DNA of 64,000 nt from Acidimicrobiaceae bacterium. Lineage in GTDB: Bacteria; Actinomycetota; Acidimicrobiia; Acidimicrobiales; JACDCH01. Made by a program: the position numbers and the translations under genes. The stretch covers positions 9,032-73,031 of the forward strand of contig JBEEGH010000034.1 of assembly GCA_041166745.1 (NCBI GenBank), in the 5' to 3' direction. The stretch's first letter is position 1. Each line of letters begins with the position of its first letter. Positions 1 through 59,769 of the stretch are shown here, piece after piece. The notes under the pieces were generated by a model. That model was not told where the DNA came from. It saw only the letters and a program-made list of their open reading frames with translations, and ran no database searches.

Positions 1-2018
1 GCGGTGACCGCGGCGAACTCATCGCCGTCGCTGGTCTGCTCGAGGTACCGCGCCACTGCGAGATGTCGCGCCTTGCGATCGCGGCGCGAGAGCGTGTCGT
101 ATGCGACGGTGCGTACCAGCGCCTGTACGAACCGGTACTGGCCGCGCTCGGGCGAAAATCGGTCGGTGTGAAGGAGCAGGATCTCTTTGCGGACCAGCTC
201 CTCCAGCACCGCATCCAGGTTCCCGACGCTGGTCACGGCCTCGAGTGCGTCACGGGAGAACGCCAACCCGTGCACGGTGGCGTCCTGCACGACCTCGCGT
301 TCGGCGGGCGTCAACGCGTCGAGTCGGGCCGCGATCAATGCCTGAAGGCTGGGGGGCGCGTCGAGCGTGCTGAGATCGACGCGCTGGTCCGCATCCGGAG
401 CGAGGACGTAACGGCCCTCGCGCGGGATGACCGCATCACGGTCGATGAGACCTCGCACCATCTCGAGCGCGTAGAGCGGAATCCCCTCCGAGCGTTCGAC
501 GAGCGCCCGGCACGCCTGCTCCGGCAGTCCCTGCACGAGACCGTTGACGATCTCGGCCATCACCGCTTCACCGAGCGGCTCGAGATACACCGTGGTGGCC
601 CGCCGTCCCGTGCCCCAGCCAGGGCGGGCGTCGACGAGATCCGGACGGGCCAGCGTCAACACGAACAGCGGGAAACGTGCGGTGTCCAGCAGGTGGTCGA
701 GGAAGTCGAGCAAGTCAGGGTCCGCGTACTGCATGTCGTCGAAGACGAGCACGACGCTCTTGTCGCCCTCGCTGACCCGCTCGAAGAAGTTGGCCCAGGC
801 CGAGAAGAGGTCGTCGCGCCCGAAGCTGGTCGGTCCGTCCGAGCGAACCTCGAGACCGAGAAGCGCGGCCAATCGCGGTTGGAGCCACTCCCGTTCATTC
901 GAATCCGCGACCGAGCGCTCGAGACCGGCGGTGAGCTTCTCGTGGACGACAGTGGACGGTTCCCCGTCGGTCACGCCGAGGCGCGAGCGCACCATCTCGG
1001 CCAGCGCCCAGAAACTGACGCCATCGCCGTAGGACAGGACGCGGCCGCGATGCCATCGCACGACCTCGCGGATGCCGTCGACGTACTTCTCGAACTCCCA
1101 CGCCACCCTGGTCTTGCCGACACCAGCGAGGCCAGAGACCGCTACCAAGCGCGGGCGACCTTCGTCCACGACCGCGTGGAAGAGCTCTTTCACCAACCGG
1201 AGCTCGTGCTCGCGTCCGAGGAACGGGGCTTCCAGACCATCGACGCGCTGAGCGCCACCGACGCTGGCGACGATGGCCCGCGCCGAATGCAAGCGCAGGG
1301 GCCCGGCCTTGCCTCTGAGGGAGTGCTCCCCCGCTTCCGTGTAGGTCACTGCCGCAGACGTGAGCGAGCGGGTGGTCTCATCGACCCACACCTGGCCAGG
1401 CTCGGCCACGGCCTGGATCCGAGCCGCGGTGTTGACGGCATCTCCGGCGACCATTCCCTCACCGACCGCGCCGAGCGTGACCGCAACCTCGCCAGTGAGG
1501 ATCCCGACGCGCATGTTCAGGTCGGGAACGCCGACTTTCTCGGCGAGGCCCCCGACCTCGCCGATCAGGTCCAGACCGGCACGCACGGCGCGCTCCGCGT
1601 CGTCCTCGTGGGTGATCGGCACGCCCCACACGGCCATCACGGCATCGCCGATGAACTTCTCGATCGTGCCTCCGTAGCGAGCGATGACCGTGTTCGCCAT
1701 CGCGAAGTACTGCGAGAGCAGTTCGCGAGTGTCCTCCGCATCGCGGGATTCCGCCAGCGTGGTGGAAGCCACCAGGTCGGCGAACAGGATCGTGGTGAGG
1801 CGCCGCTCGGCCACGCGCTTCGATGCGTCTGGCGACACGCCCGACGGCGCCGCCGGCGAGGCAGATGCCGTCAGTGCCCCGCCGCACTCGCCGCAGAACT
1901 TCGCGTCCTGTTCCACCGCCACACCGCACGTCGGGCACACGAGCCCGAGGGCCGCGCCGCACTCGCGGCAGAATTTCTTGCCCTCTGGGTTCTCCACGGC
2001 GCATGCGGGACAGTTCAT
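1..2018 (-). CDS. Zn-ribbon/class III nucleotidyl cyclase/AAA (STAND) ATPase protein, paralog 1 (C-terminus runs off window)
   Basis: Not in the ORF track (no stop in window). ATG at 2018 overlaps the upstream stop (ATGA) and gives MNCPACAVENPEGKKFCRECG...LFADLVAST...KFIGDAVMAVWG...GDAVNTAAR...GVGKT; colinear and highly similar to 2015-5560. Confidence 0.9.
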   Translation of the reverse strand, partial: MNCPACAVENPEGKKFCRECGAALGLVCPTCGVAVEQDAKFCGECGGALTASASPAAPSGVSPDASKRVAERRLTTILFADLVASTTLAESRDAEDTRELLSQYFAMANTVIARYGGTIEKFIGDAVMAVWGVPITHEDDAERAVRAGLDLIGEVGGLAEKVGVPDLNMRVGILTGEVAVTLGAVGEGMVAGDAVNTAARIQAVAEPGQVWVDETTRSLTSAAVTYTEAGEHSLRGKAGPLRLHSARAIVASVGGAQRVDGLEAPFLGREHELRLVKELFHAVVDEGRPRLVAVSGLAGVGKTRVAWEFEKYVDGIREVVRWHRGRVLSYGDGVSFWALAEMVRSRLGVTDGEPSTVVHEKLTAGLERSVADSNEREWLQPRLAALLGLEVRSDGPTSFGRDDLFSAWANFFERVSEGDKSVVLVFDDMQYADPDLLDFLDHLLDTARFPLFVLTLARPDLVDARPGWGTGRRATTVYLEPLGEAVMAEIVNGLVQGLPEQACRALVERSEGIPLYALEMVRGLIDRDAVIPREGRYVLAPDADQRVDLSTLDAPPSLQALIAARLDALTPAEREVVQDATVHGLAFSRDALEAVTSVGNLDAVLEELVRKEILLLHTDRFSPERGQYRFVQALVRTVAYDTLSRRDRKARHLAVARYLEQTSDGDEFAAVT

Positions 2019-5000
2019 GGCACGAGCGGACGGGAGTTGACACGTTGGACTTCCGCGACCCATCGGTTGGCCCGCAGGTCGACGAAGATTGCTTCCGCCT
2101 CTTCGAGCAGCGGCGCTGCAGCCTCGTCATCGCCGCTCTCCGCCATCACACGGGCGCGCTCGAGCAGCGTGCGCGCGATGTAGAAGCGGGCTCCGAGATC
2201 CCGAAACTCTTGCGTCGCGAGCTCGAGATCGGCGTCGATGACGGCCGAGTCGTCGCCGCGCGCGATTCCGACGAGCGCCCGGAGGCGTAACAGCTGCGCG
2301 TGCGCGAGCAGCGTGACCAAACCACGCGGCGCGTCGGCGACGTAGCCGAGCAGTCGCTCGGCTTCGCTCGTGTTTCCGGCCGCGAGCACGCTGTCGATGG
2401 CGAACGGCAGCAAGACGGCAAAGTCGTCTTCGATCCCAGACACGCGGTACGCCGCGTCCATGGCGCGGGTGAGCTCGACCGCTGCCTTCTCGAGATCGCC
2501 CTCGGCCTCGGCGCGCAAACCCTGGGCCAGCGCGTCCACGTACTCGGCCGCCGAGTTGCTGGCGTCGTACTCCGGAACGACGAGTTGGAAGTCGACGGGC
2601 TCGTCGCGGGCAGTGCGGATGAACACCAGCACGGAGCGGATCACGATGAGGTCGAGCGGATAGCTCAGGAAGTTGTCCTGATGGCTCACGTGGAGCGCCT
2701 CGGTCTCATCCCAGTCACCGGAGACCCAGCAGGTGAGTGCGAGGTTCATCGCGGCTATCCGCACGAGATCACGTGCGCCCGCCTGCAGCGTCAGCTCGAC
2801 CGCTTCACGGCCTGCGGTCCGCGCCTCGTCGAGGTCGCGGTTCTTGAGAAAGGCGGAGATGTTGAGCAGGGGCAGGATCGTCGCCCGCGGCAGATGTTCA
2901 CGGCGGCCGAGGTCGACGGCCGCGCGAAGAAGCGCGATCGCGCCCGTCGGCCGTCCTGTCGAAAGCCAGATGAGGGCCTGTCGGTTGAGCAGAGAAACGA
3001 GCCGTTCCCAGTCCTGCCGGCCTTCGGCCAGCTCCACCGCGCGATCGTTGTAGACCTGACCGGCGACCTGGTCGCCGCCCATCATGTGAACGCGCGCCAG
3101 GTTTTCGGCCAAGCGAAGAATGGCGTCATCGGCACCGGGCACGTTCGTGAGCTCGTCGTACACAGGGCGAACGAGCTCGCCTGACGCCTGGACATGGCCC
3201 TGTGAGAACAAGACGTCGCCGATGAGCGCGACGACGCGACCGGCGTCGACCCGTTGGCCCATCGACTCGTACGCGGCCCGCGCTTGTTCCGCATGGTGGA
3301 TCGACTCGTCCGGCCGGTTCGACGATTGCGCGGCACGCGCCGCCCCCTCGAGGAGCCGGCCGCGGTCGCTCGCGTCGGGCTCCCGTGCGAGCGCGGTCGT
3401 GTAGTGCCGAAGCGCTTCTTCGGGCGACCCCAGCGCTTCGGCCCGCCGCGCCGCACGCTGGAGTCGTTCGAGTGCGGCGGCGATGAGGGCCGGCGCATCG
3501 TCGTCGTCGGGCCCGTTGTCGAGTGCGTCGAGATAGTGCCGCGCGATGACCGCAGAGACTTCGTCGCCTTCACTCGCCTGCTCGAGGTACCGCGCCACGG
3601 CGAGATGTCGTGCCTTGCGATCACGCCGTGACAGCGTCTCGTACGCGACCGAGCGCACGAGCGCCTGCACGAACCGGTACTGACCCCGCTCCGCCGAGAA
3701 CCGGTCGGAGTGAACCTCGAGGATCTCCTTGCGGACGAGCTCCTCGAGCACCTCGTCCAGGTTCGCGACTGCGGTCACCGCTTCGAGCGCGTCGCGGGAG
3801 AATGCCAGCCCGTGTGCAGTTGCATCCTGCACCACCTGCCGTTCGGCGGGGGCCAGCGCGTCGAGACGGGCGGCGATCAGTGCCTGCAGGCTGGGTGGCG
3901 CGTCGAGAGCACTGAGATCGACGCGCTGGTCGGCATCGGGTGCGAGCACGTAACGGCCCTCACGGGGAATGACCACATCACGGTCGATGAGCCCGCGCAC
4001 CATCTCGAGCGCATAGAGGGGAATCCCCTCGGAGCGTTCGACCAGCGCGCGGCACGCCTGCTCGGGCAGCCCCTGCACGAGCGCATTGACGATCTCGACC
4101 ATGACGGCCTCGCCGAGCGGCTCCAGATACACCGTGGTGGCGCGCCGTCCCGTACCCCAACCGGGACGGGCGTCGGCGAGCTCCGGCCGGGCCAGCGTCA
4201 TCACGAACAGCGGGAACCGCGCGTTCTCCAGTAGGTAGTCGAGGAAGTCGAGCAGATCGGGATCCGCGTACTGCATATCGTCGAACACGAGCACGACGCC
4301 GTTGTCGTCCTCACGGACCTGCTCGAAGAAGTTTGCCCATGCTGCAAAGAGGTCGTCGCGGCCGAAGCTCGTCGGTCCGTCGGCGCGACCCGCGTCGAGA
4401 CCTAGTAGCGCGGCCAGCCTCGGTCGGAGCCACTCTCGCTCGTTCGGGTCGACGACGATGTTCTCGAGTCCAGCCGTGAGCTTGTCTTCGACAACGGTGG
4501 ACGATTCCGCGTCGGTGACACCAAGCCGTGTGCGCACCATCTCGGCCAGTGCCCAGAAGCTCACACCATCGCCGTAGGACAGGACCCGGCCGCGATGCCA
4601 CAGGACGACCTCGCTGATGCCGTCGACGTACTTCTCGAACTCCCACACCACCCGCGTCTTGCCGACACCGGCGACGCCCGTCACGGCCACCAACCGCGGC
4701 CGGCCCTCATCGATCGCGGCGTGGAAGAGGTCCTTCACCAAACGGAGCTCGTGTTCGCGTCCGAGGAACGGCGCCTCCAGTCCATCGACGCGCTGAGCGC
4801 CACCGACGCTGGCGACGATGGCCCGTGCTGAATGCAGTCGAATGGGCTCGGCCTTGCCTTTCAGGAGGTGTTCGCCCGCTTCTGTGTAGGTCACCGCCGC
4901 AGACGTGAGTGATCTCGTGGTCTCATCGACCCACACCTGGCCAGGCTCGGCCACGGCCTGGATCCGAGCCGCGGTGTTGACGGCATCACCGGCGACCATT

Positions 5001-53742: not shown

Positions 53743-56700
53743 CTAGCTGCGCGGCGCTCGGTTCACGAGCCCCTTGTACCCATCGACGAAGCCCGCCTGC
53801 CGTAGTTGTTCGGCGGCGGCCTCGACCTCGCGGACGGGCTCGCCGTTGACCTTGCGGATCTCGAGCGTGCGGTAGCGCCCGCGCTCGACGAGCTGGTGCA
53901 GTGCGGAGGCCCAGCCGTCGACCTGGAACGTGACCAGGCTGTGGCCACCACGCTCGAGGTACGCCGCGAGCTGTCCGTCGATCAGCACGACGTGCGCGCC
54001 GGCGGCACGCGCGGGGCGTCCGCCCGATTCCGGCCACGGCAAGGCCGCGCCGTACGGCTGCGCCGGATCGGTGGCCGCGAGCACGAGCATGGAGTCGCCG
54101 GACTCTCGATGCGAGCGGAGGCGGTCGACGGCGCCGGGCATTGCGAACTGTGCGGCACCCAATCCGGCGACGAAGTAGCCCCGGCGCACTCGCCCGCGTT
54201 CCTCGAGTGCCTTCAGGACGGGATAGACGCCGGCGAAGCCGCCTTCGAGGCCCTCGCCGAGCGCGGCTTCGCGCGTCAACACGCCGTAGCGCTCGAGCAA
54301 CTGCGACGCGCGGGCGTGGGCGGCCTCGGTGGATGACGGGCGCGGCGCCAGCAGCGGAGCGACGAGAGACCACCGGCCGGACCCTGCGGGCGGGCCGAGC
54401 CGCGCGAGGCGGCCGGGACGGGGCCGTCCGGTGGCGCGGCGCGCGGGGCGAGCACGCACGTGAGCCCGCAGCGGTGCCAACGAATCGTTCGTGACGAGAC
54501 CGGCCCACACGAGATCCCACAGCGAAGTGAGGACCTCGCCGTCGTCGTAGCGCAGCCCCGCGGCGCCGATGGCCTGTACCAGCTCGGGCCAAAATGACGC
54601 GCCCCGCGCTTCGAGGTGCGCGAGCAACGCCTGATGCCCGGGACCGAGATCGATCTCGGTCGCTGACGGAACGAGCAGCGGGGCCTGATCGCGGAACACC
54701 ACTCGGATGCGTCCGTCGGACGATCCGATGGCGCCCGCACCGACCCACACCACCTCGCCTGACGTGCACAAGAGATCGAGATCTGAAGCGCGGTATTCGG
54801 CGAGGCGGGCGGGCAGCACATCAGCTTCGAGCACAGAGGCGGGGATCGCCGCGCCCGACAGCACACCGAGCACGTCCACTACACCGTCGATGCCATGCCG
54901 ATTGGATCCGACGCCCTGCCACGCGGGCAGGAACCGCGCGAGGGCGACGCCATCGACCGGCTCGACCTCCCGCCGCAACACGGCGAGCGAGCGCCGCCGC
55001 AACTGACGGAGCACGTCGTCGTCACACCACTCGCGCTCGACTCCGTCGGGCCGGAACTCGCCGCGTACGACGCGCCCTTCGCGTTCGAGTTTCTCGAGCG
55101 ACGGCTGCACCCGATCGGCGCCGACGCCCAGATGGGCGGCAACGTGCGCGGTGAGGAACGGTCCGTGGGTCCGCGCGAATCGGGCGACCAGATCGAGCAT
55201 CGGCTCGTCGACCGATTCGGTGAACGCACCCGGCAGGCCGATCGGCAGCGCGACGCCGAGCGCATCGCGCAAGCGGGCTGCATCTTCCGCCGCGGCGAAT
55301 CGAGTCTCGCCCGCGATCGACACCGCGATGGCCCGACGCTCGCTCACGAGTTGCTCGGCCCACGGAGAAGGGTCGGAGACCGAACGGGCGTCGAGGTCGA
55401 CCGCGGTCATCGGGCCGAGCACGCGCAGCAGGTCGTGCAGCTCATCCGCATCGCGGGCTCGCCGGCCGTCGACCAGGTGCTGCAGCTCGAGCTCGAGGTC
55501 GGCCAGCGCGCCGGGGTCGAGCAGGTCGCGGAGCTCCTCGGCGCCGAGGAGATCGCGCAGCAGATCGCGGTCCAACGACAATGCCGCCGCCCGGCGTTCG
55601 GCGATCGGCGAATCGCCTTCGTACATGTAGGCCGCGATCCACGAGAACACGAGCGACTGCGCGAACGGAGAGGCGCTCTGTGTGTCGACCGGTACGACCC
55701 GGATCGCGCGCGACCGCAGCTCGGCCAGCACCGTGCGCAACGCGGGAACGTCGAACACGTCGTTGATGCACTCGCGCGTGGCCTCGAGCAAGATCGGGAA
55801 GGTCGGGTGGTTGGCGGCCACGGACAACAGATCGGCCGCCTTCTGGCGCTGTTGCCACAACGGTGTGCGCTTGTCGGGACGGCGACGGGGAAGGAGCAGT
55901 GCGCGGGCCGCGCATTCACGGAAGCGTGACGCGAACATTGCCGTGTTCGGCAGCTGGCTGATCACGAGATCGTCGATCTCTTCCGGATCGATCAAGAGGT
56001 CGGCGATCGGGAGCTCGTCGATCGCCTCCGGCAGGCGCACCACGATGCCGTCGTCGCTCCACAACAACTCGACGTCGATCCCCCACCGTTCGGACAGCCG
56101 CGCCTGCAGTGCCATCGCCCAAGGGGCGTGCACCTGCGCGCCAAAGGGCGACAGGATGCACACGCGCCAATCGCCGATCTCGTCGCGGAAGCGCTCGACG
56201 ACGATCGTGCGGTCGTCGGGCACCGCGCCGGTGGCCTCGGCCTGCTCGTCGAGGTACTGCACGAGGTTGGTCGCCGCCCGCGGATCGAGGCCGAACTCGT
56301 CGTGGAGTCGCTGCACTGCGGGCGCGCCCCATCCGCGCACGTTGCGAACGAACTCCCCGACGGCGCGCCCGAGCTCGAGCGGCCGGCCCGGGCCGTCGCC
56401 GTGCCAGAACGGCATCTTCCCCGGCATCCCCGGTGCCGGCGTGACGATCACCCGCTCGTACGTGATGTCTTCGATGCGCCACGTCGACGCGCCGAGCAGG
56501 AACGTCTCCCCCGGCCGTGACTCGTACACCATCTCCTCGTCGAGCTCGCCCACGCGAGTGCCGTCGGGGAGGAACACGCCGAACAACCCACGATCGGGGA
56601 TCGTGCCGCCGCTCGTGACGGCAAGCCGCTGCGCGCCAGCGCGGCCGCGCACGATGCCGTTGACGCGATCCCACACGATGCGCGGTCGCAGCTCGGCGAA

Positions 56701-58191
56701 CTCGTCGCTCGGGTAACGGCCGGACAACAGATCGAGCACCGTCGCGAGCACGTCGTCGGACAAGTCGGCGAAGTTGGCGGACCGGCGCACGAGCGCGGCC
56801 AGCTCGTCGAGCTTCCACTCGTCGAGCGCGCACATCGCGACGATCTGCTGCGCGAGTACGTCGAGCGGGTTGCGCGGATAGCGGGTGTGCTCGATCAAGC
56901 CATCGCGCATGCGCTGGACCACGACGGTGGCCTCGACGAGATCCGCGCGATGTTTGGGAAAGAGCTTGCCCCGGCTCGGCTCGCCCACCTGGTGGCCGGC
57001 GCGGCCGATGCGTTGCAAGCCCGACGCCACGGACCGGGGCGACTCCACCTGGACGACGAGGTCGACGGCACCCATGTCGATGCCGAGCTCGAGACTCGAC
57101 GTGCACACGAGCCCGCGAAGGCGCCCTGACTTCAACGCGTCTTCGATCTGGAGCCGCCGCTCACGCGACAGCGACCCGTGATGCGCCATCACGAGGTCTT
57201 CGGCGGGAGCGTCCGTCGGCGGCGTCCCGCTCGCCTCGGCGGCGGCGTTCTCGCCTTCGAACTTCAGCTCGTTGAGCCGCGTCGCCAACCGCTCGGCCAG
57301 TCGACGGGAGTTCACGAAGATGAGCGTGGACCGATGCGACTCGACGAGCTCGAGCAGCCGCGGATGCATGGCCGGCCAGATCGAGCGTCGGACCGGGCCC
57401 GCTGCCGCCGGCCCGCTGACCGGCTCTTCGATGATCTCACCGAGCGCGCCCATGTCGTCGACCGGCACGATCACTTCCACGTCGAGCTGCTTGCGCATGC
57501 CCGCGTCGACGATCGTGACCGGCCGCGGCTGGCCATCCTCGCCGCGCCCGCCGAGGAAACGGGCGATCTCGTCGAGCGGACGTTGCGTGGCGGACAGGCC
57601 GATGCGCTGCGGTGACTGGTCGCAGATGGCCTCGAGCCGCTCGAGCGTCAACGAGAGATGGGCGCCGCGTTTGGTGGCGGCCAGCGCGTGGATCTCGTCG
57701 ATGATCACCGCGTCGATGTTGCGCAGGGTCTCGCGGGCCTGCGAGGTGAGCATGAGGTACAGCGACTCGGGCGTGGTGATGAGCAGGTCGGGTGGTTCAC
57801 GCACCAGCCGACGCCGTTCGTCTGACGGTGTGTCGCCGGTGCGCATGCCCACCGAGGGTTGATGCACGGTGAGGCCGAGACGCTCGGCGGCCAGACGGCT
57901 GCCGGCGAGCGGAGCCCGCAGGTTCTTCTCCACGTCGACCGCCAGGGCGCGCAGCGGAGACACATAGAGAAGACGCGTGCGCCGCACCTTCTCGGGGGCC
58001 GGCTCGGTCATCAGCCGATCGATGCCCCACAGGAACGCGGCCAGCGTCTTGCCCGAGCCCGTGGGAGCGAGGATCAGCGTGTGGTCGCCGGCGGCGATGG
58101 CCGGCCAGCCCTGCGCCTGGGCGTCTGTGGGCGCGGGAAAGCTGGACTCGAACCAGGCCCGAACGGGCGCCGAGAAACGGTCAAGCGCTAT
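53743..58191 (-). CDS. lhr: Lhr family SF2 helicase (long form)
   Basis: Q-motif and APTGSGKT lie upstream of ATG 58011; DEIH, SAT, HHGS, LELGID, QRIGR; the frame extends to a probable ATA start at 58191. Confidence 0.92.
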   Translation of the reverse strand: MALDRFSAPVRAWFESSFPAPTDAQAQGWPAIAAGDHTLILAPTGSGKTLAAFLWGIDRLMTEPAPEKVRRTRLLYVSPLRALAVDVEKNLRAPLAGSRLAAERLGLTVHQPSVGMRTGDTPSDERRRLVREPPDLLITTPESLYLMLTSQARETLRNIDAVIIDEIHALAATKRGAHLSLTLERLEAICDQSPQRIGLSATQRPLDEIARFLGGRGEDGQPRPVTIVDAGMRKQLDVEVIVPVDDMGALGEIIEEPVSGPAAAGPVRRSIWPAMHPRLLELVESHRSTLIFVNSRRLAERLATRLNELKFEGENAAAEASGTPPTDAPAEDLVMAHHGSLSRERRLQIEDALKSGRLRGLVCTSSLELGIDMGAVDLVVQVESPRSVASGLQRIGRAGHQVGEPSRGKLFPKHRADLVEATVVVQRMRDGLIEHTRYPRNPLDVLAQQIVAMCALDEWKLDELAALVRRSANFADLSDDVLATVLDLLSGRYPSDEFAELRPRIVWDRVNGIVRGRAGAQRLAVTSGGTIPDRGLFGVFLPDGTRVGELDEEMVYESRPGETFLLGASTWRIEDITYERVIVTPAPGMPGKMPFWHGDGPGRPLELGRAVGEFVRNVRGWGAPAVQRLHDEFGLDPRAATNLVQYLDEQAEATGAVPDDRTIVVERFRDEIGDWRVCILSPFGAQVHAPWAMALQARLSERWGIDVELLWSDDGIVVRLPEAIDELPIADLLIDPEEIDDLVISQLPNTAMFASRFRECAARALLLPRRRPDKRTPLWQQRQKAADLLSVAANHPTFPILLEATRECINDVFDVPALRTVLAELRSRAIRVVPVDTQSASPFAQSLVFSWIAAYMYEGDSPIAERRAAALSLDRDLLRDLLGAEELRDLLDPGALADLELELQHLVDGRRARDADELHDLLRVLGPMTAVDLDARSVSDPSPWAEQLVSERRAIAVSIAGETRFAAAEDAARLRDALGVALPIGLPGAFTESVDEPMLDLVARFARTHGPFLTAHVAAHLGVGADRVQPSLEKLEREGRVVRGEFRPDGVEREWCDDDVLRQLRRRSLAVLRREVEPVDGVALARFLPAWQGVGSNRHGIDGVVDVLGVLSGAAIPASVLEADVLPARLAEYRASDLDLLCTSGEVVWVGAGAIGSSDGRIRVVFRDQAPLLVPSATEIDLGPGHQALLAHLEARGASFWPELVQAIGAAGLRYDDGEVLTSLWDLVWAGLVTNDSLAPLRAHVRARPARRATGRPRPGRLARLGPPAGSGRWSLVAPLLAPRPSSTEAAHARASQLLERYGVLTREAALGEGLEGGFAGVYPVLKALEERGRVRRGYFVAGLGAAQFAMPGAVDRLRSHRESGDSMLVLAATDPAQPYGAALPWPESGGRPARAAGAHVVLIDGQLAAYLERGGHSLVTFQVDGWASALHQLVERGRYRTLEIRKVNGEPVREVEAAAEQLRQAGFVDGYKGLVNRAPRS

Positions 58192-58246: not shown

Positions 58247-58918
58247 GTGGCTGAGTACGTCTCCCCCGAATGGCATCCCGCCTTCGAGGAGTACTGCGAG
58301 ACCATCTTCGAGCTCCGAGAAGACGACGTCGACGTCATCCAGGCTCGGGTGGCGGAGCGCCTCGAGATCTCTCGCCCGGCCGTCTCCGAGATGATCAAAC
58401 GGATGGAAGGCGAGGGTCTCGTCCAGCTGCGGGCGGGCTCGATCACGCTGACCGACAGCGGACTGCGGCTCGCCGAGCGGGTCGTGCGTCGCCATCGACT
58501 GGCCGAGCGCTTCCTCACGGACATCCTCGGCTTGTCGTGGGCCGAGGCCCACAAAGAGGCCGGGAAGTGGGAGCACGTGATCTCCGAGAAGGTCGAGCAG
58601 GCGATCATGCGCGTGCTCGACAACCCCACCACATGCCCGCACGGCAATCCGATCCCGGGCAGCGACTACGCCGCGCCGCCAGCAGTTCCGCTCGTCGATC
58701 TCGACGTGGGCAGCGGCTTCACGGTGTCACGCATCCCGGAGGAGTTGGAGTTCTCTCCCGGCTTGCTCGAGTTCCTCGAGGAGGCCGACGTGTTGCCCGG
58801 CCGTCACGGAACGATCACCGCAACCTCACCCGACGGCACGACCACTGTCGAGATCGAGGGCCGCCACGTGGGCATCGGCTCGTTTGCCTCGAAGCGGATC
58901 CTCGTCACCTCCGGCTGA
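58247..58918 (+). CDS. DtxR/IdeR/MntR family metal-dependent regulator
   Basis: EEY..I.EL.E, RRHRLAERFL, EA.KWEHV, CPHGNPIP; TACACT 6 nt before GTG. Confidence 0.93.
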   Translation: MAEYVSPEWHPAFEEYCETIFELREDDVDVIQARVAERLEISRPAVSEMIKRMEGEGLVQLRAGSITLTDSGLRLAERVVRRHRLAERFLTDILGLSWAEAHKEAGKWEHVISEKVEQAIMRVLDNPTTCPHGNPIPGSDYAAPPAVPLVDLDVGSGFTVSRIPEELEFSPGLLEFLEEADVLPGRHGTITATSPDGTTTVEIEGRHVGIGSFASKRILVTSG

Positions 58919-58933
58919 CGCTCGCGCCGCGCG

Positions 58934-59296
58934 TCACAGGCTGATGACGCGGTCCGCCTCTTCTATGAGGCGGGCCACATCCGGAGGCGCCACCCACTGT
59001 CCGCCGAGCTCGGCCAGGTCGTCATCGGTCGCCCCACGGGCGACGGCGCAGCCCTTTCAGACGTACACCGGCACTTCGTGCTGTCGAACCTTGGCGAACA
59101 GATCGCGAAGTGGCGGCAGACCGAGACCTTCGAGTCGTTCGCGGACATCCGCCTTCACCATCTCGGTTGCGTCTCCGGCCAGCATGATGCTGACGGCGTG
59201 ACCCACCTCGATCGAACCGTTCACCGCGAGGTGGATCGGGATCGATGCTCGGGTCGGATCGGCCGCACCGCTTGTCGCCATGTACAACATCCGCAT
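58934..59296 (-). CDS. DsrE-family protein, probable selenoprotein (in-frame TGA 59057-59059, U80-K-G-C83)
   Basis: DsrE N-terminus (DPTRASIP, LAGDA) continues past the TGA as KGCAVARG...LIEEADRVISL; hairpin 12 nt after the TGA. Confidence 0.8.
59028..59044 (-). promoter_or_regulatory. Putative bacterial SECIS hairpin
   Basis: GTCGCCC-GTG-GGGCGAC; the apical loop starts with G, 19 nt after the UGA. Confidence 0.65.
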
Positions 59297-59313
59297 GCGC
59301 AGAGCGTACGCGC

Positions 59314-59769
59314 CTACAGCCGCAGGGGTTTGATCGGGGCGAAGACGGCCATGGGATCGTCGCGCCACGTCTCGGGCTGCACGTCGATGTAGAGCTCGAT
59401 CTCGTTGCCGTCCGGGTCCTGGATGTAGAGGCTGTGGGTCACGCCGTGATCGGAGGACCCGACGATCGATACACCCGCGGCTTCCAGATCACGCACAGCA
59501 GCACGAAGCTCGTCGTCCGTGTCGCCGACCTTCAAGCCGAAGTGGTACAGACCGATCCGCCGGCCTTCGGGGATCGGGACTGCGGTCGGGCCGACCTCGA
59601 TGAGCAGGAGCTCGTGGTGGGTCCGGCCCGACGAGAACGCCGCCGCCGGCATGCGGAGGGGCGTGTCCCCCGCGACCTCGGTCCATCCGAGAACGTCCTT
59701 GTAGAAGCGGCGAGACCGCTCCAGGTCTTTGACGTACAGCACCACATGGCCGAGCTCTTTGACGTGCAT
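59314..59769 (-). CDS. VOC/glyoxalase family protein
   Basis: LGHVVLYV.D...S..FY, HHEL, LYHFG, SLY..DPDGNEIE. Confidence 0.9.
   Translation of the reverse strand: MHVKELGHVVLYVKDLERSRRFYKDVLGWTEVAGDTPLRMPAAAFSSGRTHHELLLIEVGPTAVPIPEGRRIGLYHFGLKVGDTDDELRAAVRDLEAAGVSIVGSSDHGVTHSLYIQDPDGNEIELYIDVQPETWRDDPMAVFAPIKPLRL

What the first reader, a model, noticed from the sequence alone, without database searches (positions are those of the whole stretch)
58934..59296. Hidden selenoprotein: DsrE-family UxxC protein with a SECIS-like hairpin
Seen: the ORF track stops at ...EVPVYV-TGA (59057-59059). The frame continues stop-free for 40 more codons (KGCAVARGATDDDLAELGGQWVAPPDVARLIEEADRVISL), completing a 120-aa protein. 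A 7-bp GC stem with a G-led loop starts 12 nt after the TGA. Known: DsrE/DsrF/YchN-like proteins carry a Cys or CxxC at this V-Y-V-C position and end in an 'AD.V.' strand; bacterial SECIS elements lie just 3' of the UGA; DsrE-like selenoproteins have been reported in other bacteria. Inference: the TGA is decoded as Sec, giving a selenium-based sulfur-relay or redox enzyme co-transcribed with the VOC gene 17 bp upstream. This would imply Sec usage in this actinobacterium.
Basis: partly seen in the sequence, partly recalled or inferred. Interest (0 to 1): 0.85.

Follow-up and report, generated by a model that had tools for sequence, protein, structure and literature searches.

The report
Hidden selenocysteine DsrE-fold protein gene
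A small gene that looks cut short by a stop codon almost certainly encodes a full 120-residue selenium-containing (selenocysteine) redox or sulfur-handling protein, of a family already known but routinely mis-annotated as truncated.

Summary
On the minus strand, a 120-codon DsrE-family gene (59296..58934) has an in-frame TGA at codon 80 (59059..59057). The motif is U-K-G-C, and a 7-bp GC hairpin starts 12 nt after the TGA.

The Sec reading is strongly supported:
- The genome has tRNA-Sec(UCA), adjacent selA and selB, selD, and a formate-dehydrogenase-type gene with an in-frame TGA.
- The same TGA, an open and conserved 39-42-codon tail, and the hairpin recur in 31 other genomes (38-73% identical).
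- Synonymous sites in the hairpin are nearly frozen (0.57 versus 1.49 bits), and compensatory changes keep the pairing.
- 110 of the 120 best database homologs stop exactly at the TGA.
- The read-through product fills the whole Pfam DsrE profile and folds confidently (pLDDT 91.5) into a DsrE fold, with U80 and C83 at a helix N-terminus.

A DsrE-like UxxC selenoprotein family has been in print since 2005, so this is a new member of a known kind. It belongs to a large, under-annotated actinobacterial clade.

Function is inferred: a selenenylsulfide redox or sulfane-sulfur-handling enzyme. The link to the upstream VOC gene is specific to this genome and co-transcription was not shown.

The parts
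58934..59296 (-). Complete coding sequence of the DsrE-fold selenoprotein: 120 residues plus the terminal TGA at 58936..58934
   Evidence: Translation with TGA=U. Pfam DsrE PF02635 E 1.2e-14, 54.9 bits, residues 1-119 on profile positions 1-115 of 116. AlphaFold2 pLDDT 91.5 and pTM 0.86. Foldseek TM 0.81 to 3MC3 and 0.75 to DsrE 2HY5_A. The start at 59296 is supported by homologs beginning MRxLY/MKxxY at the same column, mostly with a Shine-Dalgarno upstream.
59057..59059 (-). In-frame TGA, read as selenocysteine U80
   Evidence: TGA at the same alignment column in 30 of 30 loci, plus L057 and L058. It aligns with the Cys of VYVC in PDB 3MC3.
59048..59050 (-). TGC codon of Cys83, the second residue of the UxxC motif
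   Evidence: Invariant in the 15-sequence alignment and in all 30 loci. Replaced by Ser together with U80 in the 4 stop-free paralogs. Lies in the first turn of helix 81-86 in the model.
59028..59044 (-). SECIS-like hairpin: 7-bp stem (59044..59038 with 59034..59028) and loop GUG (59037..59035). The alternative reading is a 6-bp stem with loop CGUGG. It starts 12 nt after the UGA
   Evidence: 96.3% of cells paired against 34-71% in slid controls; 2 pairs with compensatory change; 2 of 500 shuffles reach the observed values. Third-position entropy 0.57 bits in 5 hairpin codon columns against 1.49 bits in 17 other conserved four-fold columns. L058 keeps the stem through three double changes (read by eye). 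The genome's own fdhA-type gene has the same geometry.
59303..59308 (-). TACGCT, a -10-like hexamer 6 nt upstream of the ATG, with no Shine-Dalgarno (candidate leaderless promoter; weak)
   Evidence: Same hexamer at the same 6-nt spacing in the window, L020 and L021 only, which is 3 of the 30 printed loci. Most of the others show a GGAGG-type SD instead. The sigma-70 consensus scan found 0 promoters.
59314..59769 (-). Upstream VOC/glyoxalase-family gene. It is a neighbour, not a conserved partner. The start at 59769 is inferred
   Evidence: PF00903 E 1.1e-21. tblastn with this protein hits only the window's own locus among 37 loci.

Best explanation
The gene encodes a 120-residue stand-alone DsrE-fold selenoprotein. 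During translation the UGA at codon 80 is read as selenocysteine. SelB carrying Sec-tRNA(Sec) is recruited by the 17-nt GC hairpin that starts 12 nt downstream, and this hairpin lies inside the coding sequence (codons 85-90). These steps are supported by comparative evidence, but selenium incorporation was not shown directly. Function is inferred. U80 sits at the end of strand 77-80, at the N-terminus of helix 81-86, three residues before the invariant C83. I read the pair as a redox couple in which the selenolate attacks a sulfane-sulfur, disulfide or peroxide substrate and C83 resolves the adduct into a selenenylsulfide, which a cellular thiol system then re-reduces. I put the Sec decoding at about 0.9 and this redox mechanism, as opposed to a pure carrier role, at about 0.5. 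The gene belongs to a widespread actinobacterial clade that gene callers truncate at the UGA.
For: Sec machinery in the same genome:
- tRNA-Sec at 66.4 bits against a cut-off of 47, called tRNA-SeC with anticodon tca by ARAGORN.
- selA at 311.5 bits, with selB adjacent at 244.5 bits against a cut-off of 242.25.
- selD at 330.8 bits.
- A molybdopterin oxidoreductase reading ...ARI-U-HSS... with one in-frame TGA.

Conservation:
- TGA at the same column in 30 of 30 loci, plus 2 same-order genomes.
- 39-42 open codons follow in 30 of 30.
- Codon-position differences downstream (0.387/0.345/0.607 for codons 91-120) match those upstream (0.401/0.292/0.617), which indicates protein-level purifying selection in this frame.
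- 110 of the 120 best database homologs cover only the first 61-65% of the query, ending at the TGA.

Hairpin: as listed under parts.

Co-occurrence: of the 25 other carriers in the phylum sample, 22 have selA. Two more have a selD that itself contains a TGA, and one of those also has tRNA-Sec.

Fold and site.

Redox reading:
- C83 is invariant.
- U and C are lost together, as S-x-M-S, in 4 of 4 stop-free paralogs.
- The literature lists the DsrE-like selenoprotein among UxxC redox motifs.
Against: No direct evidence of selenium incorporation, and no bSECISearch run.

The single-sequence fold is not better than shuffles (z = -0.17), and no Rfam family matched.

The hairpin overlaps strongly conserved residues (AVARGAT). 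Part of its conservation is therefore protein-level, and only 2 compensatory pairs were counted in the 25-sequence alignment.

The selA background is high (268 of 400 sampled genomes), so co-occurrence discriminates weakly.

One carrier, G055 (94% complete), shows no selA, no selD over the cut-off and no tRNA-Sec over the cut-off. Its gene is split across two frames.

The runs that reproduce the TGA may be the source sample.

On function: characterised DsrE and TusD act as single-Cys persulfide carriers (recalled, not tested here). TusA lies directly upstream in 5 of 10 U-G-x-C loci, which favours a relay role for that subclade.
Confidence: 0.86

Rival explanations
1. The protein is a sulfur (or selenium) relay carrier like DsrE/TusD. 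U80 accepts a sulfane sulfur from a TusA- or rhodanese-type donor and passes it on, and C83 has only a supporting role. The UGA is still read as Sec, so this rival concerns the mechanism only.
For: DsrE, TusD and YchN are among the best fold matches. A TusA gene (PF01206, E about 5e-17) lies 15-28 nt upstream on the same strand in 5 of 10 U-G-x-C loci. An ArsR-rhodanese ORF lies about 870 nt upstream in L026, and rhodanese appears in 2 of 89 neighbour ORFs.
Against: None of the 20 U-K-[G/A]-C loci, the window's clade, has TusA within the flanks examined. No DsrF/DsrH/TusB/TusC-like partner appears among the 89 neighbour ORFs. The strict invariance of C83, and its loss together with U80 in the paralogs, is not required of a single-site carrier.
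Confidence: 0.3
2. The UGA is recoded, but to another residue (Trp or Cys by near-cognate read-through), not to Sec.
For: Six of the 10 full-length database homologs carry W at this column. This shows at least that a W reading gives an open frame.
Against: Two of those W sequences also read W at the terminal stop, which points to gene calling under a TGA=W code; this is my inference. The gene's own terminator is TGA, so the genome uses TGA as a stop. The conserved hairpin at SECIS distance and the full Sec machinery would have no role. A UxxC site on a redox fold matches Sec/Cys, not Trp.
Confidence: 0.04
3. The TGA is a real stop. A 79-residue product is made and the downstream 40 codons are not translated.
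For: This is how gene callers annotate it: 110 of the 120 best homologs are truncated there. Under selenium starvation, termination at UGA is expected to compete (general knowledge, recalled).
Against: The tail stays in frame and stop-free in 30 of 30 loci, with a third-position excess of change. The Pfam profile and the predicted fold need the tail, which supplies strands 100-102 and 116-120 and helices 81-86, 91-97 and 104-113.
Confidence: 0.03
4. It is a sequencing error, or a recent nonsense mutation that made a pseudogene.
For: One carrier, G055, does look like a decaying copy: its hit is split across two frames and no Sec machinery was found in that genome.
Against: The TGA is at the same column in 31 other genomes at 38-73% identity. 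Contigs of two runs reproduce the window with 0 differences, though these may be the source. The window's copy has an intact frame.
Confidence: 0.01

Closest known systems
Published 'DsrE-like protein' selenoprotein family (PF02635, UxxC): Sargasso Sea sequences and Desulfovibrio vulgaris, representative WP_014524487.1
   Same: Same Pfam family, same UxxC redox motif, and a SECIS hairpin with a G in a small apical loop just 3' of the UGA. Read as passages from PMC1088965, PMC1794560, PMC9312934 and PMC13188914.
   Different: Those papers count 2 Sargasso sequences and 1 member in complete genomes, from a deltaproteobacterium. Here it is a broad actinobacterial clade: 610 database homologs and TGA-form copies in 31 other genomes. 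I could not obtain the published representative, so orthology as opposed to independent Cys-to-Sec recruitment is untested. Supplementary tables of large surveys were closed and may already list this clade.
PDB 3MC3, DsrE/DsrF-like family protein of Sulfolobus solfataricus (structural-genomics entry, function unknown)
   Same: Best sequence match (E 0.16 single, 0.054 profile) and best fold match (TM 0.81, rmsd 2.7 over 119 columns). It is a stand-alone protein of about 120 residues. Its VYVC Cys aligns with U80, and both end in an EADR-type strand.
   Different: It has Cys instead of Sec and no Cys at +3 in the printed alignment. Only 23% identical, and archaeal.
DsrE (2HY5_A) and TusD (2D1P_A), active subunits of the DsrEFH and TusBCD sulfur-relay hexamers
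   Same: Same fold (TM 0.75 and 0.77). An active-site Cys near residue 78 after the fourth strand carries the persulfide; that statement is recalled from the literature and was not tested here.
   Different: Those work as hetero-hexamers with DsrF/H or TusB/C and use a single Cys. No such partner genes lie near any of the 25 public loci, and this protein has a U-x-x-C pair.
CxxC-bearing DsrE-like domains: YedF C-terminal domain (CGxC) and SaoD (CxxC)
   Same: A DsrE-like fold with a dithiol-type motif, proposed to act in selenium- or metal-related redox chemistry (passages of PMC5322559 and bioRxiv 10.1101/2022.07.06.499078).
   Different: YedF is fused to a TusA/SirA domain. SaoD is stated never to be a selenoprotein. 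No sequence comparison was made here.

Membership tests
Bacterial selenoprotein gene (SelB/SECIS-dependent UGA decoding) | In-frame UGA aligned with Cys (or Sec) in homologs | tested here: met
   Aligns with the Cys of 3MC3 and with C in P0005 and P0007. TGA at the same column in 30 of 30 loci.
Bacterial selenoprotein gene (SelB/SECIS-dependent UGA decoding) | Coding potential conserved downstream of the UGA | tested here: met
   39-42 open codons in 30 of 30 loci. Third-position excess 0.607 against 0.387 and 0.345. The Pfam profile is covered to position 115 of 116.
Bacterial selenoprotein gene (SelB/SECIS-dependent UGA decoding) | Stem-loop immediately 3' of the UGA with a small apical loop containing G | tested here: met
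   A 7-bp stem 12 nt after the UGA with loop GUG. 96.3% of cells paired, 2 covarying pairs and frozen synonymous sites. The criterion is as worded in PMC1088965. bSECISearch itself was not available.
Bacterial selenoprotein gene (SelB/SECIS-dependent UGA decoding) | tRNA-Sec, SelA, SelB and SelD encoded in the genome | tested here: met
   All are over their family cut-offs, selB only just (244.5 against 242.25).
Bacterial selenoprotein gene (SelB/SECIS-dependent UGA decoding) | Selenium actually incorporated at the UGA | not testable with these tools
   Needs 75Se labelling or mass spectrometry.
DsrE/DsrF-like family (Pfam PF02635) | Profile match over the gathering threshold | tested here: met
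   54.9 bits against 22.7, E 1.2e-14. No NCBIfam model matches.
DsrE/DsrF-like family (Pfam PF02635) | DsrE-type alpha/beta fold | tested here: met
   Model pLDDT 91.5. The 9 PDB hits with E <= 0.001 are all DsrE/YchN/TusD-family or related structural-genomics entries.
DsrEFH / TusBCD sulfur-relay complexes | Partner subunit genes (DsrF/H, TusB/C) in the same locus | tested here: not met
   No second DsrE-family ORF among the top families of 89 neighbour ORFs from 25 public loci. No family recurs in more than 2 ORFs.
DsrEFH / TusBCD sulfur-relay complexes | Nucleophile at the position of DsrE/TusD Cys78 | tested here: inconclusive
   U80 aligns with the 3MC3 Cys. No residue-level alignment to 2HY5_A or 2D1P_A was obtained, and the Cys78 numbering is recalled.
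Published DsrE-like UxxC selenoprotein family | PF02635 plus a UxxC motif | tested here: met
Published DsrE-like UxxC selenoprotein family | Orthology with the published representative (WP_014524487.1 / D. vulgaris) | not tested
   The sequence could not be fetched with the tools at hand.

The most novel reading that the evidence does not exclude
The actinobacterial U-K-[G/A]-C clade is a distinct, almost obligately Sec-using DsrE-fold enzyme family. Only 2 of the 120 closest database homologs carry Cys. It would have been recruited to selenocysteine independently of the Desulfovibrio-type protein, and its SECIS is so constrained that the same ~34-nt RNA recurs across the soil organisms sampled in these metagenomes. 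It would perform a selenium-dependent sulfane-sulfur or persulfide reduction not yet described for the DsrE fold, and its routine truncation in databases would mean that Sec use in soil Actinomycetota is underestimated.
Probability: 0.3. Interest if true: 0.6.

Novelty: new member of a known kind. Interest (0 to 1): 0.45.

Why it matters
It corrects an annotation error that appears to be systematic: 110 of the 120 closest database entries are truncated at the Sec codon, and no NCBIfam model matches the read-through product.

It shows that this soil actinobacterium uses selenocysteine beyond formate dehydrogenase.

It provides a well-conserved, compact, in-frame SECIS (17 nt, 12 nt after the UGA) with comparative support, which could help train selenoprotein finders for high-GC Actinomycetota.

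Biochemically, a Sec-x-x-Cys site on a DsrE scaffold is an untested chemistry that links selenium to sulfane-sulfur or thiol redox metabolism.

The kind itself has been in print since 2005, however, so a selenoprotein specialist would not be greatly surprised.

Tried and rejected
Rfam scan of 58850-59400 at E <= 10 gave only two chance-level hits, a miRNA and an sRNA model. Rfam has little for bacterial SECIS, so this says nothing either way.

Folding the single sequence gave z = -0.17, which is uninformative in 70%-GC coding sequence.

NCBIfam gave no match.

PDB sequence searches gave only 3MC3 at weak E-values. The carbonic anhydrase and TraR hits (E 0.2-0.6) look like chance matches to the short VYxxxC stretch.

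A conserved operon partner was not found. Clustering ORFs of 30 loci returned mostly antisense shadow ORFs of the gene itself, and the Pfam tally over 89 neighbour ORFs showed no family in more than 2. The VOC neighbour is unique to the window.

The sigma-70 and intrinsic-terminator scans found nothing.

selA co-occurrence discriminates weakly because 268 of the 400 sampled genomes have selA.

Sequencing runs: X3 and X4 hold only small shares. Their contigs over 59012-59083 come from other organisms, and differences below the 10% listing threshold would not be shown. They therefore do not independently confirm the TGA of this strain. No habitat claim is made from the small-share rows.

I did not try to name the organism. 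'Actinobacterium' rests on the labels of the four named homolog-bearing MAGs and on the sampling by phylum.

Complex prediction was not used, because no partner is proposed.

Full report
OBSERVATION.

The feature lies on the minus strand. From ATG at 59296 the frame reads MRMLYMATSG...EVPVYV and then TGA at 59059..59057. It stays open for 40 more codons (KGCAVARGAT...EEADRVISL) to a terminal TGA at 58936..58934, giving 120 residues with the motif U80-K-G-C83.

Twelve nucleotides after the in-frame TGA comes GTCGCCC-GTG-GGGCGAC (59044..59028). This is a 7-bp stem with a G-led triloop, or a 6-bp stem with loop CGUGG, and it has -11.6 kcal/mol on its own.

The upstream VOC/glyoxalase gene (PF00903, E 1.1e-21) ends with TAG 17 nt before the ATG. 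A DtxR/IdeR-type repressor gene converges from the other side.

FAMILY AND FOLD.

With TGA read through, the product matches Pfam DsrE/DsrF-like PF02635 at E 1.2e-14 (54.9 bits, cut-off 22.7). The match runs over residues 1-119 and profile positions 1-115 of 116, so the tail after the TGA is needed to complete the domain. No NCBIfam model matches.

AlphaFold2 on a 15-sequence alignment gives pLDDT 91.5 and pTM 0.86. The tail contributes helices 81-86, 91-97 and 104-113 and strands 100-102 and 116-120.

Foldseek against the PDB returns 3MC3 (TM 0.81), DsrE 2HY5_A (0.75), YchN 1JX7 (0.78), TusD 2D1P_A (0.77) and other DsrE-family entries as the only strong hits.

By sequence, only 3MC3 is found (E 0.16; profile E 0.054). 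Its VYVC cysteine is aligned to U80. U80 ends strand 77-80 and C83 lies in the first turn of helix 81-86, which is the usual setting of a CxxC/UxxC redox pair.

SEC MACHINERY.

The window's genome (34 contigs, 4.51 Mb, 98.3% complete) has:
- a tRNA-Sec at 66.4 bits against a cut-off of 47, which ARAGORN calls tRNA-SeC with anticodon tca;
- selA at 311.5 bits;
- selB directly downstream of selA at 244.5 bits, just over its cut-off of 242.25;
- selD at 330.8 bits with no internal stop.

A molybdopterin oxidoreductase on another contig has one in-frame TGA and reads ...ENQARI-U-HSSTVPG.... From memory, that is the active-site motif of Sec-containing formate dehydrogenase alpha. Its UGA is followed, after 11 nt, by a 7-bp GC stem with loop GGUCU. 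This is the same geometry as the hairpin in the DsrE-like gene, and both loops contain G-U. One SelB could plausibly read both; that is inference.

CONSERVATION OF THE TGA.

A search of the protein collection found 610 homologs. Of the 120 best, 110 cover only 61-65% of the query, meaning they stop at residue 79 (mostly 79 aa, or 74 aa from a later start).

The 10 that cover the full length have, at the U80 column:
- W in 6 cases. Two of these also read W at the terminal stop, so I infer gene calling under a TGA=W code.
- C in 2 cases.
- R in 2 cases.

At the DNA level, four named MAGs labelled Acidimicrobiia, Acidimicrobiales, Actinomycetota and Thermoleophilia (63-73% identical) all have TGA at codon 80.

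In an even sample of 400 other genomes of the phylum, 42 have a match at E <= 1e-8. Of these, 25 carry a copy with exactly one in-frame TGA (38-69% identity). The weaker hits have no stop.

A tblastn-anchored extraction shows the TGA at the same column in 30 of 30 stop-containing loci, counting the window. The motif is U-K-[G/A]-C in 20 loci and U-G-x-C in 10. The four stop-free paralogs examined have Ser at both positions (S-x-M-S) and no hairpin.

All 30 keep 39-42 open codons after the TGA. Mean pairwise differences by codon position are 0.387/0.345/0.607 for codons 91-120 and 0.401/0.292/0.617 for codons 1-79 (25 public sequences). The tail therefore evolves as protein in this frame.

Among 20 close relatives, none of 5 same-genus genomes (63-91% complete) and none of 7 other same-family genomes has the TGA form. 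Two same-order genomes have it, one of them twice. The distribution is patchy.

THE HAIRPIN AS AN RNA ELEMENT.

The hairpin lies in codons 85-90 (VARGAT), so protein conservation is a confounder. Two controls address this.

First, synonymous sites were compared in columns where the residue is conserved and four-fold degenerate:
- Ala86 is GCC in 30 of 30, Gly88 is GGG in 28 of 28, Arg87 is CGT in 26 and CGG in 4, and Val85 is GTC 20 / GTT 5 / GTG 1.
- Mean third-position entropy is 0.57 bits over the 5 hairpin columns, against 1.49 bits over 17 such columns elsewhere in the gene.
- With public genomes only, the figures are 0.50 against 1.50 bits.
- Thr90, just outside the stem, is free at 1.37 bits.

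Second, pairing was counted. On 25 public sequences (23 distinct), 96.3% of cells form standard pairs, against 34-71% when the partners are slid. Two pairs show changes on both sides: L028 goes from C-G to G-C through two synonymous changes, and L052 goes from U-A to C-G. Only 2 of 500 shuffles reach the observed values.

A same-order copy, L058, fetched later, keeps a 6-bp stem through three double changes (G-C to A-U, U-A to C-G, C-G to G-C) although the encoded residues differ. I read this by eye.

The codon before the UGA is also biased, at GTC in 25 of 29.

[quoted passage not shown] The numeric bSECISearch limits I remember were not found in the text I read and are not used here.

CO-OCCURRENCE.

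selA is found in 268 of the 400 sampled genomes, so it is common in this phylum sample. Of the 25 other TGA-form carriers, 22 have it. The other three:
- G391 (91% complete, unpublished) has a tRNA-Sec at 77.6 bits and a selD with an in-frame TGA.
- G347 has a selD with an in-frame TGA.
- G055 (94% complete) shows none of these over the cut-offs, and its DsrE-like hit is split across two frames. That fits a decaying copy in a genome that no longer decodes Sec, which is inference.

READS.

Two soil-metagenome runs hold 98-99% of the sampled words, and both may be the source sample. Their contigs reproduce 58850-59400 with 0 differences, TGA included. This excludes an assembly slip but is not independent confirmation.

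In all four runs laid, depth rises only over 59021-59077, for example from 0-2 to 187 in X4. The rise comes from short contigs with few or no differences, and the longer contigs break there. I read this as the Sec codon plus hairpin being nearly identical across many organisms in these soils.

CONTEXT.

No neighbour is conserved. Among 89 flanking ORFs from 25 public loci, no Pfam family occurs more than twice. The window's VOC protein has no counterpart in the 36 other loci.

Most loci have a GGAGG-type Shine-Dalgarno before the start. The window and its two closest relatives instead have TACGCT exactly 6 nt before the ATG and no SD. This may be a -10 box of a leaderless transcript, but the evidence is weak and the consensus scan found no promoter. 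Co-transcription with the VOC gene is therefore neither shown nor needed.

In the U-G-x-C subclade, a TusA gene (PF01206, E about 5e-17) ends 15-28 nt before the Sec gene in 5 of 10 loci. In the U-K-[G/A]-C clade the count is 0 of 20.

MECHANISM.

Shown by comparison: the UGA is under selection to stay UGA. The tail is translated. An RNA stem-loop at SECIS distance is under selection of its own. The decoding machinery is present and has at least one other client gene.

Inferred: SelB-dependent insertion of Sec at residue 80.

For function I commit to a Sec/Cys redox couple, in which U80 attacks and C83 resolves to a selenenylsulfide. The reasons are the invariance of C83, its position at +3 on a helix N-terminus, the joint loss of both residues in the paralogs, and the listing of UxxC DsrE-like proteins among redox selenoproteins in the literature. 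The likely substrates are sulfane sulfur, persulfides or disulfides, given the DsrE ancestry and the TusA link in the sister subclade. A pure relay-carrier role is the main rival.

COMPARISON AND NOVELTY.

A 'DsrE-like protein' selenoprotein family (PF02635, UxxC) is in print. The passages I read report:
- two Sargasso Sea sequences (PMC1088965);
- one member in complete genomes, in Desulfovibrio vulgaris (PMC1794560);
- a listing with representative WP_014524487.1 in two reviews (PMC9312934 and PMC13188914).

Three full-text searches found no paper describing this actinobacterial clade: 'DsrE-like' + 'selenoprotein', 'selenoprotein' + 'Acidimicrobiia', and 'selenoproteome' + 'Actinobacteria' + 'DsrE'. 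A 2026 preprint on Actinomarina reports many uncharacterised selenoprotein families in Acidimicrobiia but does not mention DsrE (passages). Supplementary tables were closed and may list the clade.

The gene meets the published definition, so I file it as a new member of a known kind. Orthology with the deltaproteobacterial representative is untested.

VERDICT.

Its value lies in correcting annotation and in documenting a large, Sec-dominated actinobacterial clade with a very constrained in-frame SECIS. It is not a new kind of system.

Noticed in passing
G000 contig C28, locus L056 about 1105-4400 (+), TGA at L056:1708: A molybdopterin oxidoreductase, probably formate dehydrogenase alpha, has one in-frame TGA in the context ...ENQARI-U-HSSTVPG.... 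A 7-bp GC hairpin with loop GGUCU starts 11 nt after it. This is a second, canonical selenoprotein in the same genome.
   Followed up: partly
Loci L040, L041, L043, L044, L045 (U-G-x-C subclade): A TusA sulfurtransferase gene (PF01206, E about 5e-17) ends 15-28 nt upstream of the Sec gene on the same strand. It is present in 5 of 10 loci of this subclade and in 0 of 20 loci of the window's U-K-[G/A]-C clade.
   Followed up: partly
Loci L047, L050, L051, L053: Distant stop-free paralogs (31-32% identical) have Ser at both the U80 and C83 columns (S-x-M-S) and lack the hairpin. They look like a redox-dead branch of the family. Two of the four are from unpublished genomes.
   Followed up: no
Proteins P0011 and P0025: Two full-length database homologs carry Arg at the Sec column (V-R-K-G-C). 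This could be a TGA-to-CGA/AGA change or a calling artefact. Their DNA could not be fetched.
   Followed up: no
Genome G055, contig C79 27060-27411 (locus L039): This TGA-form copy is split across two frames, in a 94%-complete genome where selA, selD and tRNA-Sec were not found over their cut-offs. It may be a pseudogene left after loss of Sec decoding.
   Followed up: partly
window 59021-59077: In four soil-metagenome runs, contig depth spikes only over the Sec codon plus hairpin (up to 187 against 0-2 beside it), and the longer contigs break there. The ~34-nt stretch 59025-59058 seems to be shared nearly unchanged by many organisms in these soils.
   Followed up: partly
window 58916-58936: The stop codons of the convergent DtxR/IdeR-like gene (TGA at 58916-58918, + strand) and of the selenoprotein gene (58934-58936, - strand) sit in the two arms of the inverted repeat TGACGC...GCGTCA. 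There is no T-run, and the terminator scan found nothing.
   Followed up: partly
window 59297-59313: TACGCT lies exactly 6 nt before the ATG, with no Shine-Dalgarno, in the window and its two closest relatives (L020, L021) only. This may be a -10 box of a leaderless mRNA. Most other loci have a GGAGG-type SD.
   Followed up: partly
Genomes G347 and G391: selD itself carries an in-frame TGA in these genomes (the selenoprotein form of SelD), whereas the window genome's selD has none.
   Followed up: no
window 53743-58011 (-): A 1422-residue ORF that looks like a large ATP-dependent DEAD/DEAH-box helicase, judged by eye from its motifs, lies next to the DtxR-like gene. It was not analysed.
   Followed up: no
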